Shown piece by piece: positions 27,001 to 30,000 of a stretch of 37,506 bases of DNA (the first letter of the stretch is position 1; every line of letters begins with the position of its first letter). The stretch is taken from the IMG/VR virus record IMGVR_UViG_2802429245_000007. One strand, given 5' to 3'. Origin of the DNA: a virus. Lineage: Duplodnaviria > Heunggongvirae > Uroviricota > Caudoviricetes. Position numbers: made by a program.

Positions 27001-30000
27001 TTTCCACATAAAAACCCATATTCCACAATTCGCCATCAAGGTCCCCAAGAGCTTCATCTTGCTCCTGTATATCTTTAGAAAAAATAAAATCATCTGCTAA
27101 AAGAAAACCCGTAAAATTATCACCACCAAAATGAGTATTATAATCAACCTCATCATAAAAATATCTCACTATAGCCTTCAGCAAGTTATGTACTTCAAGT
27201 GATTCAGTATCTAAACAAATATTATCTGAACCACAAAAAGCACAAGTACTATGAATGTTTTGCAAACGCATTAAGTTTTTAATATTTGATTCGATAATAT
27301 GATTTTCGCAGATAAACATTATAATCCCCCTTAATTACCCCTTAGATACTAATTATTGCCGTTTGGGACTGCGCGCGCAATCGTATCCCCGCCACGCCTA
27401 CCCGCTTTATGCAGTGGTTTTCATGCGCCTGCATGACATATGCAACAGCCCGCCAGCTCAGGCTGGCATCAGCGAAAACGATCGTCATACTATCATGCGA
27501 TCTCATGCGCCATATGAAGTTTTCCTGACACAGCCTTGGGTTGGGATAACACCTAACTCAGGAAGATTTTTTGTGTGTTTGTAACCCGCACCTAGAGTTT
27601 ACCAATCCATGTTTGCGGCATTATCCATCTCACGAGTTAAGTAATTAACCAATAAGTCCATATTCCTTTCTGATTTCATCGCCTCCGCATAGGTTCCATT
27701 AGTTACGTAAGATAGTATTAAAGGACATCCAGATTCAATATAAATTTTTGCTGGGGACAGTTCTCCCTGCCACAAATTTTCAAGAAAATCGTTAATTAAT
27801 TGCATTGCTTCAGGTGCCAAAAAATGCACACCATTTCCAAACTTGAAACGTTCTTTATTTTCTCGATGAGGCAGCAATAGTGGCACAGCCCCTACACTTG
27901 AGTGAAATTCCAATGCTTGCCCATCCTTACCGAAGGCGCCATGGGCTACAAAATTACGCACCTGTTTTCTGAGTATAAGTAAACGATCATAGAATGATTT
28001 TAGACTGGAAGAGTTAATATCAATGGCTAATTTGAATTTCTCCCCCCATTCTTTTCCAACTTTATCAGCCACATCATTCCCATTTTTTATCTCACCCTTC
28101 AAGATTGCAATAAGAATGAAAACATGCTCGGTCCAATTGAAAAATGACTCAATTGCAGACGTTGCTAACCACATAGCCTCTCTTCGGAGTTCAATTATCT
28201 TATTTGATTGTTCAAAAGTGGATTGTAACAGGCTGAAAAAATTATCAGACTTAAACTCACTATCAACTTCCAGTTTAGACTCTTGGCCAGCAGCAACTTC
28301 ATCAAGCTTCTGTTTATATAGCTCTAAAAAATAGCAAAACCTATCATAAAGAGAATTAGCATTGTTATTAACATTTAGATTTGAAGTCTTTGCTGCATTG
28401 TCTGCAAGCGAGTCAAAAAATTTCGTAGCAGCTTTAACCCCTGCGCAAATATGTCTCAAAACAGTTTTAGCTTGCTCTATATCATCATCACTCTTGATAA
28501 ATATATCTAAACCAAGTTTACGATGTTCTATAATTACGACAGTCCCATCAATCCGGACTGGGATAGAAAAAGAAATCTTCTCATCAACCCCACGATTTTT
28601 AAATTTCAGTAAATCTACCAAAAGAAAATAAACGAGATAATACGGAGGTAATGAGTCTCCCAAACCCGAGCGCTTACCCCAAAAATATTCATCAAGCTCG
28701 GCAGACTCCATTGTCCCTATGACTCTTCGGACGCGTTCTTCAACTTTAGCCAGATCCATTCCCCACACCGCCTTTCAATATCACTTAAGGTATTACAGCC
28801 AATGACATCGATTAAATACAGCGTAGATAATAGGCAACTTGCTACTGTTTTCAAGGGCTTTCTGTTTCAATCCTTAGTTGACCTTGCTGACGCGAGAATC
28901 TAGTTCTCACGCCAGCAACGCCCCTGCTGCTAACCGGGAAGATCCATTACACGGTTATATTCATGGGCACGAATTTTCGCCATCAACTCATCAGTCAGCT
29001 CTGAAACCCACTGCAGAGCCAGCCCCTTCTCTTCATCACTACACTCACTAGCCGCTACAAGCTTAAGAAAAAAATCAATGCGCTGGAGCTTCAAAGACTC
29101 CAAAAAATAGTCCTGCATCTTTCCTCCTATGACACCAAAACAATACTGTATACATAACCACTGTTTATATTTACAGTATATAATAATCTTACTGATGTAA
29201 AACGTTTTTTTACGCTCATCAGCCTGATATGCCTGGTATTATTAAGAGCACGAATTGTTAACCCGCGTAATTAATACAGGTTCCGCCACTTGTCATCTTC
29301 CTGCAAACGCTGGTTCCGATAGAAGATACGCAGGCCTGCTCCTGACGGAATACTGCCGCCGCGAAGGAGTAAATCGACCTCTTTCTCGCTGCCATCAAAT
29401 CCTCTGGACCTCAGTTCATAGACGAGCTGCTGTCGCTGATGGTCTGTAATTCGCTGTTTGTAGTCTTTACGCCGTTTCGGTTTCACCTGGCGTAACCTTG
29501 CAGCCAGTTCCCGGCGCTCTTTTTTGCTCATACTGTGCAGGTAATCGTGCAACTCCTTGTCATTCATACGGGTAATATCCGTTCTGGAGTCCCCATCAGC
29601 TGATTTGTCTTTCCCTTGTTGGTTCAAATTTTCAGCAAGGGGACAGTTATTGCCACGAGTCCAAGGGGCGCAAGCGCCCTGGTCGGCTGCCGCCTCCTGA
29701 ACGTCAACGGCCTTACGAACCATTTTCCACTTCACGGCATGAGTGCAGATCTTGCCCTCTGCAATGGGTGACCAGATGCCATAAATACGAATGCCGTGAT
29801 CGCCATAGGCGGTCGGCTCTTCGTTAATTTCATAAGCGGTTCTGATGAGGTGATATTTGCGGGGAACCAGTACGCCGCCCTGCTTCATGATGTAGGTGGC
29901 AAAACAACCAGCATCAGCAGCAGCCAGGATGGCATCAAGGCGCGGGTTATCCAGTACCGGCGCACCTGCTTTTTTGTCGCCCTGTTGCCTTGCCGCCTGA

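What the first reader, a model, noticed from the sequence alone, without database searches (positions are those of the whole stretch)
27381..27401. cos-like site places the RES gene at the left end and the HEPN/SOS module at the right end of the packaged genome
Seen in sequence: the minus strand reads GGCGTGGCGGGGA..., which matches the start of the 186/P2 cohesive end as I recall it, inside a GC-rich non-coding gap. If correct, the two cargo loci flank cos.
Basis: partly seen in the sequence, partly recalled or inferred. Interest (0 to 1): 0.35.

Follow-up and report, generated by a model that had tools for sequence, protein, structure and literature searches.

The report
Ordinary P2-type prophage cos site
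The flagged sequence is almost certainly the DNA-packaging cut site (cos) of an intact P2/186-like prophage, sitting where it always sits in this phage family, between two swappable accessory genes, and this arrangement is already well described.

Summary
The minus strand at 27398->27380 reads GGCGTGGCGGGGATACGAT, followed by TGCGCGC. This matches the annotated 19-nt cohesive end of phage 186 at 16/19, P2 at 14/19 and the annotation-derived cos of Salmonella phage SEN8 at 18/19.

The site lies in a 145-bp block (27370-27514) conserved across P2-like phages. This block contains the 55-63 bp core shared by divergent lineages. It lies between the portal gene (25079-26110) and replication gene A (29271-31712), as in P2 and 186. 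P2-type terminase genes are present and the prophage looks intact.

AT-rich cargo abuts the block on both sides:
- Left: a 384-aa RES-domain protein.
- Right: a 386-aa protein of unknown family.

Homology with relatives breaks at the block edges, and the left and right cargo assort independently.

Caveats:
- The "HEPN" label is unproven. The R-N-x3-H motif is invariant, but there is no significant profile or fold match.
- The LexA box belongs to a conserved 62-aa backbone gene, not to the cargo.
- Virion ends remain untested.

The cos-proximal gpA-gpQ hotspot, and cargo between cosL and Q, are already published, so interest is low.

The parts
27380..27398 (-). Predicted 19-nt cohesive-end sequence, 5'-GGCGTGGCGGGGATACGAT-3' on the minus strand. 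Predicted nicks lie between 27399|27398 on the minus strand and 27379|27380 on the plus strand, giving 5' overhangs.
   Evidence: 16/19 to 186 cos, 14/19 to P2 cosL and 18/19 to SEN8 putative cos. The nick geometry is inferred from the annotation of U32222.
27372..27426 (.). Conserved cos core of about 55 bp: TGCGCGC, the 19-mer, and the proximal right arm ..GCATGAAAACC..CATAAAGCGGGTA.
   Evidence: Divergent P2-like lineages (portal about 64% identical) share only window 27372-27426/27438. Column conservation runs from -37 to +26 in 131 unique cos regions. A 55-bp core of P2-family cos (Ziermann & Calendar 1990) is cited in PMC5694545.
27370..27514 (.). Full conserved cos block (145 bp), bounded on both sides by variable cargo.
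   Evidence: BLAST to phage records covers window 27370-27514 at 79-87%. E. coli prophage homology starts or stops at 27370 and 27514. The same breakpoints appear in IMG/VR loci. GC is 0.56 against 0.35-0.38 in the flanks.
27493..27509 (-). Two distal CGCATGA repeats (27503-27509 and 27493-27499), candidate terminase recognition repeats on the right arm.
   Evidence: They align with GGTGCATGAGATTGCAT of P2 and GGTGCATTGTTTTGCAT of 186. The GCAT repeat is conserved at about -111 and -101 in most of the 131 cos regions. Their function is inferred.
27421..27427 (-). Proximal CGCATGA repeat inside the core.
   Evidence: GCAT is nearly invariant here: TGCAT at -29 in 126 of 131 regions. Loci with the ATACGAT variant read GCATGA where P2/186-type loci mostly read GCATTA.
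27452..27467 (.). Palindrome GCCAGCTCAGGCTGGC in the right arm, of unknown role.
   Evidence: A GCCAG..CTGGC hairpin is present at the same offset in 186 and in 56 of 131 unique cos regions.
26165..27319 (-). Left-end cargo: a 384-aa protein with a C-terminal RES domain. It is the only gene between portal and cos.
   Evidence: Pfam RES E=4.2e-18. Homologues are named 'RES family NAD+ phosphorylase'. GC is 0.35. No PADLOC hit.
27599..28759 (-). Right-end cargo: a 386-aa protein of an uncharacterised family (389 aa if the GTG at 28768 is the start).
   Evidence: No Pfam, NCBIfam, PADLOC or PHROG family. At least 1245 homologues, none with a Pfam domain among the 120 listed. R268-N269-x3-H273 is invariant. 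The AF2 model has pLDDT 87.8 with no Foldseek match. GC is 0.38.
28930..29118 (-). Conserved 62-aa backbone gene (phrog_698), occupying the position of 186 tum.
   Evidence: PHROG 698 E=4.7e-36. A 189-bp hypothetical gene sits in the same position in SEN8 and 4LV2017. No similarity to 186 Tum.
29161..29176 (.). LexA-box-like palindrome CTGTTTATATTTACAG, 43-58 nt upstream of the 62-aa gene.
   Evidence: It is the only CTGT-N8-ACAG in the window (0.39 expected by chance). The sequence context was read. 186 has an annotated LexA site at the equivalent p95 promoter.
25079..26110 (+). Portal protein (P2 gpQ homologue).
   Evidence: Pfam Phage_portal E=6.4e-18.
23316..25082 (+). Terminase large subunit (P2 gpP homologue) with an N-terminal HTH-like Terminase_5 domain.
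   Evidence: Pfam Terminase_6N, Terminase_6C and Terminase_5.
20611..21261 (-). Terminase small subunit (P2 gpM homologue).
   Evidence: Pfam Phage_term_smal E=2.6e-40.
29271..31712 (-). Replication protein gpA, the right-hand conserved anchor of the hotspot.
   Evidence: Pfam Phage_GPA E=4.2e-126.

Best explanation
Window 27370-27514 is the cos (packaging and cohesive-end) site of an apparently intact P2/186-like prophage. Its closest relatives are Klebsiella Elveevirus-type phages.

Inferred mechanism, by homology with P2 and 186: the phage's own terminase (gpP 23316-25082, gpM 20611-21261) recognises the conserved core and the GCATGA repeats on the right arm of replicated phage DNA. It makes two nicks 19 nt apart. 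One is on the minus strand between 27399 and 27398, the other on the plus strand between 27379 and 27380. Virion DNA would then carry 5'-protruding ends, GGCGTGGCGGGGATACGAT on the left and its complement on the right. These re-anneal after injection.

The packaged chromosome would therefore begin 61 nt upstream of the RES-domain gene, next to the portal gene. It would end just after the 386-aa gene, which follows the LexA-box 62-aa gene and gpA.

Both accessory genes are AT-rich foreign inserts in the known cos-proximal gpA-gpQ hotspot. The conserved cos block is the fixed island between them, and the two sides are exchanged independently.

What is shown: the sequence identity, the conserved block and its boundaries, the synteny, the presence of terminase genes, and the independent assortment of cargo.

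What is inferred: cleavage at these exact bonds, binding to the repeats, and any function of the cargo.
For: - The 19-mer and the flanking TGCGCGC match 186, P2 and SEN8. The signature is unique in the window, with 0.01 expected by chance.
- The right arm aligns with the right ends of P2 and 186 up to the cut position. The SEN8 record terminates at the base equivalent to 27399.
- The block 27370-27514 is conserved in 88 phage records.
- The core is conserved in 131 unique cos regions, with no conserved ORF across it.
- Order is portal-cargo-cos-cargo-gpA, with P2-type terminase, portal and gpA domains.
- The structural region is 96% identical over 81% of its length to Klebsiella phage 4LV2017.
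- All 12 retrieved loci with a portal at least 88% identical carry the same 19-mer, with at least 5 different left-interval and 4 different right-interval sizes in various combinations.
- Homology breakpoints fall at 27369-27373 and at 27426-27438 or 27514.
- Cargo GC is 0.35/0.38 against 0.51-0.53 for the portal and gpA genes.
- Literature: the hotspot lies between gpA and gpQ adjacent to cos (PMC9122126; PMC13586616). The cosL-Q interval is a known insertion hotspot (PMC5694545).
Against: - There is no direct evidence of cleavage. None of the retrieved contigs ends at this site, and the SEN8 cos was assigned by annotation only.
- Positions 14, 16 and 17 of the overhang differ from 186.
- The nearest structural-gene relative, 4LV2017, has a slightly different 19-mer, GGCGTGGCGGGCATACGAG. 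The cos block is only about 81% identical to it although the structural genes are 96% identical. The cos block may therefore have arrived by recombination together with the right-hand cargo, since 27370-29300 is 98.8% identical to E. coli prophages.
- Compatibility of this cos with this terminase is supported only by co-occurrence in loci that were retrieved using the exact pattern, which is an ascertainment bias.
Confidence: 0.88

Rival explanations
1. The sequence is a true cos homologue but is non-functional or mismatched. Either the prophage is cryptic, or the cos block was imported by recombination with the right-hand cargo and is cut poorly by the resident terminase.
For: The cos block plus right cargo (27370-29300) is 98.8% identical to E. 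coli prophages. The structural genes are closest to Klebsiella phages (96%), whose cos block is only about 81% identical and whose 19-mer differs at 2 positions.
Against: Full-length ORFs of the sizes expected for P2 head, tail and lysis genes, together with terminase, portal, gpA, ogr, CI, CII and int domains, are all present. Twelve other loci with portals 88-96.5% identical carry the identical 19-mer.
Confidence: 0.07
2. The site is cos, but the cut positions or overhang length differ from the 19-nt P2/186 geometry in this lineage. The 3' third of the 19-mer is the variable part.
For: Positions 14-19 vary among relatives (AAAGCAC, AAAGCAT, ATAGCAT, ATACGAT, ATACGAG), whereas positions 1-13 and the following GCGCGC are near-constant.
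Against: The spacing between the two conserved flanks is fixed at 6 nt in all 141 retrieved sites, although the search pattern imposed this. P2 and 186 themselves differ at position 19 yet both are annotated with 19-nt ends.
Confidence: 0.04
3. It is a chance GC-rich match, or the conservation of the block reflects a small gene or regulatory RNA rather than a packaging site.
For: Some database records annotate a 'hypothetical protein' or DinI over the homologous stretch. ORFs of 54 and 73 aa overlap it in the window.
Against: The signature is expected 0.01 times by chance. No reading frame stays open across the block in more than 69 of 131 relatives. The block aligns with the annotated ends of P2 and 186. 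It sits at the syntenic position.
Confidence: 0.01

Closest known systems
cos of coliphage 186 (U32222, 19-nt end GGCGTGGCGGGGAAAGCAT) and of P2/P4 (AF063097, GGCGAGGCGGGGAAAGCAC)
   Same: Shared features:
- First 13 nt identical to 186.
- TGCGCGC immediately after the 19-mer.
- The right-arm motifs GCAT(G/T)AAAACC and CATAAAGCGGG, and the distal GCAT repeats.
- Location between portal and the right-end accessory region downstream of gpA.
- The same terminase families.
   Different: - Positions 14, 16 and 17 differ from 186, and 5 positions differ from P2.
- In P2 and 186 about 165-175 bp of non-coding DNA with a terminator separates cos from the portal gene. Here homology stops about 7-10 nt after the 19-mer and a 1.2-kb RES cargo is inserted.
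- The ends are not determined experimentally here.
Putative cos of Salmonella phage SEN8 (Felsduovirus; ggcgtggcggggatacgag) and the cos region of Klebsiella phage 4LV2017 (Elveevirus)
   Same: - The 19-mer is 18/19 identical to SEN8 and 17/19 to 4LV2017, with the same ATACGA signature.
- The same 62-aa gene follows gpA.
- Cargo lies between cos and portal: a hypothetical protein plus HNH endonuclease in SEN8, a retron effector plus RT in 4LV2017.
   Different: Both relatives carry different cargo genes. SEN8 has a DinI gene on the right where the window has the 386-aa gene. The SEN8 cos was assigned by annotation, not measured.
cos-proximal gpA-gpQ defence hotspot of P2-like phages (Rousset et al. 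2022, PMC9122126; PMC13586616) and the cosL-Q insertion hotspot (Dodd & Egan 1996 and Nakayama 1999, as cited in PMC5694545)
   Same: Variable, AT-rich accessory genes lie between conserved gpA and gpQ around cos. RES-containing arrangements are already listed in that paper's supplementary table.
   Different: Neither cargo gene here matches a PADLOC defence model, and neither has been tested. The published work treats gpA-gpQ as one hotspot. Here cargo is resolved into two independently assorting sub-loci separated by the cos block.
SOS operon of phage 186 (p95-LexA box-tum-orf97-cos)
   Same: A LexA-box-like palindrome and a small gene lie directly downstream of gpA, followed by a second gene transcribed toward cos. 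A 186-type CI/CII immunity region is present.
   Different: The 62-aa protein shows no similarity to Tum and no DinI domain. SOS control of the 386-aa gene is not shown, and a separate promoter-like site precedes it.

Membership tests
P2/186-type cos site | 19-nt cohesive-end sequence of the GGCG(A/T)GGCGGGGA... type | tested here: met
   16/19 to 186, 14/19 to P2 and 18/19 to SEN8. It is unique in the window, with 0.01 expected by chance.
P2/186-type cos site | Conserved ~55-bp core around the cut sites, shared across P2-family phages (Ziermann & Calendar 1990, as cited in PMC5694545) | tested here: met
   Alignment with the P2 and 186 junctions. Divergent lineages share exactly 27372-27426/27438. 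Column conservation runs from -37 to +26.
P2/186-type cos site | Position between the portal gene (Q) and the right-end region downstream of gpA | tested here: met
   Portal 25079-26110, cos 27380-27398, gpA 29271-31712, compared with the P2 and 186 maps.
P2/186-type cos site | Cognate P2-type terminase (gpP with N-terminal Terminase_5 domain, gpM small subunit) encoded by the same element | tested here: met
   Pfam Terminase_6N, Terminase_6C, Terminase_5 and Phage_term_smal.
P2/186-type cos site | Terminase cleavage producing 19-nt 5' single-stranded ends in virion DNA | not testable with these tools
   This needs virion DNA. No public contig was found that ends at the site.
cos-proximal gpA-gpQ accessory/defence hotspot of P2-like phages | High turnover of gene content between conserved gpA and gpQ | tested here: met
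   No E. coli genome has both cargos together, and breakpoints fall at 27370 and 27514. The cos->portal interval is 183-4413 bp and the gpA->cos interval 486-4177 bp across loci. Many left/right combinations occur in the same lineage.
cos-proximal gpA-gpQ accessory/defence hotspot of P2-like phages | Cargo confers anti-phage defence | not testable with these tools
   No PADLOC model matches either cargo protein. Function needs plaque assays.
RES domain (PF08808) proteins | Profile match above the curated threshold | tested here: met
   66.3 bits against a cutoff of 23.2, residues 213-344. The NCBIfam ParT-type toxin subfamily is not met, 11.8 bits against 110.
HEPN superfamily (claimed for the 386-aa protein) | Conserved R-x4-6-H motif | tested here: met
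   R268, N269 and H273 are invariant in a 40-sequence alignment with 41-67% identity to the query.
HEPN superfamily (claimed for the 386-aa protein) | Significant sequence-profile match to a HEPN family | tested here: not met
   The only hit is Csx1_HEPN at E=0.04, 14.7 bits against a cutoff of 23. No hit in NCBIfam, PADLOC or PHROGs, and none in PDB sequences using the family profile.
HEPN superfamily (claimed for the 386-aa protein) | HEPN-like helical-bundle fold | tested here: inconclusive
   The models are confident and mostly helical (pLDDT 87.8 and 82.1). No Foldseek match at E<=0.001 in PDB or BFVD, for the whole chain or the C-terminal 257 aa. Long coiled-coil helices dominate the search.
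LexA-controlled antirepressor operon of 186 type | LexA box at the promoter downstream of gpA | tested here: met
   CTGTTTATATTTACAG at 29161-29176 is the only such site in the window, but 0.39 are expected by chance. By my own count it is 17/20 to the TACTG(TA)5CAGTA consensus, read.
LexA-controlled antirepressor operon of 186 type | Tum/DinI-like antirepressor encoded downstream | tested here: not met
   No BLASTP alignment to 186 Tum. No DinI family hit. The protein belongs to phrog_698, of unknown function.

The most novel reading that the evidence does not exclude
Two readings that the evidence does not exclude:

1. The right-end 386-aa gene may represent a widespread, unnamed single-gene family. 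It has at least 1245 homologues, an invariant R-N-x3-H motif, and a confident predicted fold with no PDB or BFVD match. It could be a new anti-phage effector, possibly a highly divergent HEPN-like nuclease. It is carried here together with an untested NTD-RES fusion on the other side of cos.

2. The conserved cos block may act as a recombination pivot that lets the two sides of the gpA-gpQ hotspot be swapped independently while sharing one cargo budget. The left and right interval lengths are inversely correlated (rho -0.71).
Probability: 0.3. Interest if true: 0.45.

Novelty: already known. Interest (0 to 1): 0.12.

Why it matters
Locating cos fixes the ends of the packaged chromosome. It shows that this prophage carries accessory genes on both sides of the cut site. 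Both genes are contiguous with their upstream DNA only in the circular or integrated form.

This helps with annotation and with designing an induction or end-mapping experiment. It changes no concept, because P2-family cos sites, their 55-bp core and the cos-proximal cargo hotspot are textbook or recently published.

The only forward-looking value is as a pointer to two uncharacterised hotspot genes, the NTD-RES fusion and the 386-aa R-N-x3-H family, that could be tested for anti-phage activity.

Tried and rejected
1. HEPN assignment of the 386-aa protein. Pfam, NCBIfam, PADLOC and PHROGs gave nothing significant. A family profile against PDB sequences gave nothing. AlphaFold models of the whole chain and of the C-terminal 257 aa, searched with Foldseek against PDB and BFVD, returned only coiled-coil noise. 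I therefore left it as 'inconclusive'.

2. Direct evidence of ends. I looked for public contigs or records terminating at the site. Only SEN8 ends there, and its paper says cos was assigned by annotation.

3. Natural 'minimal cos' evidence from P4-like satellites. The loci sharing only the 55-bp core (L009, L011, L017, L020) turned out to be divergent P2-like phages with gpA-like and portal-like ORFs, not satellites.

4. The 62-aa gene as a Tum homologue. No similarity was found.

5. A coding explanation for the conserved block. No conserved frame was found.

6. A sigma-70 promoter for the RES gene between cos and its ATG. The scan found none, so I make no claim about a promoter overlapping cos.

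7. The palindrome at 27452-27467. It is present in only 56 of 131 relatives, and I did not pursue it.
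Full report
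**The observation**

The plus strand at 27380-27398 reads ATCGTATCCCCGCCACGCC. The minus strand therefore reads 5'-GGCGTGGCGGGGATACGAT-3' from 27398 down to 27380, followed by TGCGCGC at 27379-27373. The quoted 13-mer is exactly at 27386-27398 and occurs once in the window. The family signature GGCGWGGCGGGGA-N6-TGCGCGC matches once even with 3 mismatches allowed, against 0.01 expected from shuffles.

**Comparison with reference phages**

- GenBank AF063097 (P2) annotates cosL at 1-19 as GGCGAGGCGGGGAAAGCAC. The window is 14/19 identical.
- U32222 (186) annotates cos at 1-19 as GGCGTGGCGGGGAAAGCAT, with the note that the top strand is cut at the 5' end and the bottom strand at the 3' end. The window is 16/19 identical, including the first 13 nt.
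- In all three phages the next bases are TGCGCGC.
- I joined the right and left ends of P2 and 186 and aligned them with the window's minus strand. The right arm also aligns..TCATGCA..GCAT(G/T)AAAACC....CATAAAG(C/T)GGG.A|GGCG, plus a distal pair of GCAT repeats about 100 nt upstream.

**Extent of the conserved element**

BLAST against 50,697 phage records finds 79-88 records, from Klebsiella, Yersinia, Salmonella, Escherichia, Erwinia and Aeromonas P2-like phages. Their matches cover window 27370-27514 and no more.

The record of Salmonella phage SEN8 ends exactly at the base equivalent to window 27399. It begins with a 'putative cos site', GGCGTGGCGGGGATACGAG, which is 18/19 identical. Its genome announcement shows this came from annotation, not end mapping.

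Two scans of IMG/VR gave 23 contigs with the exact 26-mer and more than 120 with the degenerate signature. The 19-mer variants seen are AAAGCAC (P2 type), ATAGCAT, ATACGAT (this window), AAAGCAT (186 type) and a few others.

Homology between the window and these loci starts at 27369-27373. It ends either at 27426-27438 or at 27514. The short version, 27372-27426, is 55 bp. [quoted passage not shown]

In 131 unique cos regions, conservation is strong from about -37 to +26 and again at the distal GCAT repeats. No reading frame is open across the block in more than 69 of the 131. The block is therefore a DNA site, not a gene.

**Context**

Pfam identifies the following genes:

| Gene | Coordinates |
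|---|---|
| Terminase small subunit | 20611-21261 |
| Terminase large subunit | 23316-25082 |
| Portal | 25079-26110 |
| gpA | 29271-31712 |
| Ogr | 2858-3109 |
| 186-type CI | 35485-36060 |
| 186-type CII | 34602-35117 |
| Integrase | 36376-37506 |

Glutaredoxin and an Asp-Al_Ex permease at 1-2622 are host flank. The ORF list shows full-length ORFs of the sizes expected for P2 head, tail and lysis genes. The structural region is 96% identical over 81% of its length to Klebsiella phage 4LV2017 (Elveevirus) and to related Klebsiella phage records. The prophage looks intact, and cos sits where it sits in P2 and 186, between Q and the region downstream of A.

**The flanking genes**

*Left, cos to portal.* There is a single 384-aa ORF (26165-27319, minus strand) whose ATG is 61 nt from the 19-mer. 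Its C-terminal part is a RES domain (Pfam E=4.2e-18). Homologues are named 'RES family NAD+ phosphorylase', and a few remote ones carry PF18870. It has no PADLOC model.

*Right, gpA to cos.*
- A LexA-box-like palindrome, CTGTTTATATTTACAG, lies at 29161-29176. It is the only one in the window, but 0.39 are expected by chance.
- It precedes a 62-aa gene (28930-29118) of phrog_698. This gene is also present after gpA in SEN8 and 4LV2017, so it is backbone, not cargo. It is unrelated to 186 Tum.
- After a gap with a promoter-like site comes a 386-aa ORF (27599-28759).
- This ORF has no Pfam, NCBIfam, PADLOC or PHROG family. It has at least 1245 homologues, none of the 120 listed carrying a Pfam domain. 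R268-N269-x3-H273 is invariant.
- The only HEPN signal is a sub-threshold Csx1_HEPN hit at E=0.04 over that motif.
- AlphaFold models are confident (pLDDT 87.8 for the whole chain, 82.1 for the C-terminal 257 aa). Foldseek finds nothing at E<=0.001 in PDB or BFVD, and the family profile finds no PDB sequence.
- 'HEPN' is therefore an unproven label.

*Base composition.* Both cargo genes are AT-rich (0.35 and 0.38). The cos block is 0.56, and the portal and gpA genes are 0.51-0.53.

**Modularity**

No complete E. coli genome (of 5,426) has the window's combination.
- About ten carry the right half (27370-29300) at 98.6-98.9% identity with a different left side.
- Others carry a RES homologue plus the cos block (26122-27514) at about 82% identity.

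In IMG/VR, every retrieved locus whose portal is at least 88% identical to the window's has the same 19-mer. There are 12 such loci, but they were retrieved with the exact pattern, so this is biased. Their cos->portal intervals are 935, 1164, about 1270, about 1800-1885 and about 2706 bp. Their gpA->cos intervals are 486, about 790, about 1730-1743 and about 1876 bp. These occur in many combinations.

Across 103 loci in which the portal end is visible:
- 58 have an empty cos-portal interval of 250 bp or less, as in P2 and 186.
- 42 have more than 500 bp.
- The gpA-cos interval ranges from 486 to 4177 bp.

In 40 unique pairs the two intervals are inversely correlated (Spearman -0.71). Their sums are 1.2-4.9 kb, and the window's sum is 3.1 kb. 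This analysis is uncorrected for relatedness and sampling.

**What is already known**

- Rousset et al. [quoted passage not shown] They report 1,650 arrangements in E. coli. Their supplementary table already lists arrangements ending in RES.
- A 2026 NAR study confirms this hotspot.

**Residual uncertainty**

Cleavage itself is inferred. The nearest structural relative, 4LV2017, has GGCGTGGCGGGCATACGAG (17/19) and a cos block only about 81% identical. The window's cos may therefore have arrived with the right-hand cargo by recombination. Co-occurrence of this 19-mer with closely related portals argues that it is compatible with the resident terminase, but only virion end mapping can prove it.

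I assign 0.88 to a functional P2-type cos with the stated geometry. I assign 0.07 to a relic or mismatched cos, 0.04 to different cut positions, and 0.01 to chance or another function.

**Verdict**

The feature is an ordinary, already known kind of element. Interest is 0.12.

Noticed in passing
window 15930-17684 (+): A 584-aa ORF sits between the tail genes at 15271-15867 and 17742-18188. It has no Pfam or NCBIfam family but matches the PADLOC ApeA model (E=1.4e-13, residues 337-535). It is a third candidate defence cargo at a different hotspot of the same prophage.
   Followed up: partly
window 27599-28759 (-): The 386-aa right-end cargo belongs to a large unnamed family with at least 1245 homologues, in Klebsiella, Aeromonas, Thalassospira, Plastoroseomonas and metagenomes. 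R-N-x3-H and T-E-H motifs are invariant or nearly so. The AF2 model is confident, with no PDB or BFVD fold match.
   Followed up: partly
IMG/VR loci L005-L146 (cos-anchored) and window 26111-29270: Across 40 unique P2-like loci the cos->portal and gpA->cos interval lengths are inversely correlated (Spearman -0.71). The summed length stays within 1.2-4.9 kb, as if the two sides of cos share one cargo budget. This is not corrected for phylogeny or sampling bias.
   Followed up: partly
window 27421-27427, 27493-27499, 27503-27509: The three GCAT repeats of the cos right arm all read CGCATGA here. Loci with the ATACGAT overhang variant have GCATGA at the proximal repeat, where P2/186-type loci mostly have GCATTA. 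This could reflect lineage-specific terminase recognition or just shared ancestry.
   Followed up: partly
window 27452-27467: The palindrome GCCAGCTCAGGCTGGC lies in the cos right arm. A GCCAG..CTGGC hairpin occurs at the same offset in 186 and in 56 of 131 unique cos regions, but not in P2. Its role is unknown.
   Followed up: partly
window 28930-29176 (-): A LexA-box-like site lies in front of a conserved 62-aa gene (phrog_698, unknown function), in the position of 186 tum. There is no Tum or DinI homologue in this prophage, although the CI/CII genes are of 186 type. The 62-aa protein is a candidate non-homologous antirepressor.
   Followed up: partly
window 31709-33624 (-): A PAPS-reductase-like gene gives PADLOC hits to SspD, BrxP and DndC models (best 1.8e-23). 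It overlaps by 4 nt with a Dam-type N6-adenine methyltransferase upstream of gpA. This could be a DNA-modification or anti-restriction module.
   Followed up: no
window 10185-11180 (+): An Acyl_transf_3 family acyltransferase is encoded on the opposite strand between the genes at 8832-10004 and 11201-11800. This is probably the P2 Z/fun accessory locus, and the gene is probably a surface-polysaccharide-modifying lysogenic conversion gene.
   Followed up: no
window 27370-29300 vs 3000-26110: The prophage is mosaic. The structural genes are about 96% identical to Klebsiella phages. The cos block, 386-aa gene and 62-aa gene are 98.6-98.9% identical to E. coli prophages, with the junction at the left edge of the cos core.
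   Followed up: partly
window 1-2622: The left end of the window is host DNA: a glutaredoxin gene and an Asp-Al_Ex/TrkA_C permease. The prophage att site should lie between 2622 and the ogr gene at 2858-3109. The window ends exactly at the integrase stop codon, so the other att copy is outside it.
   Followed up: no
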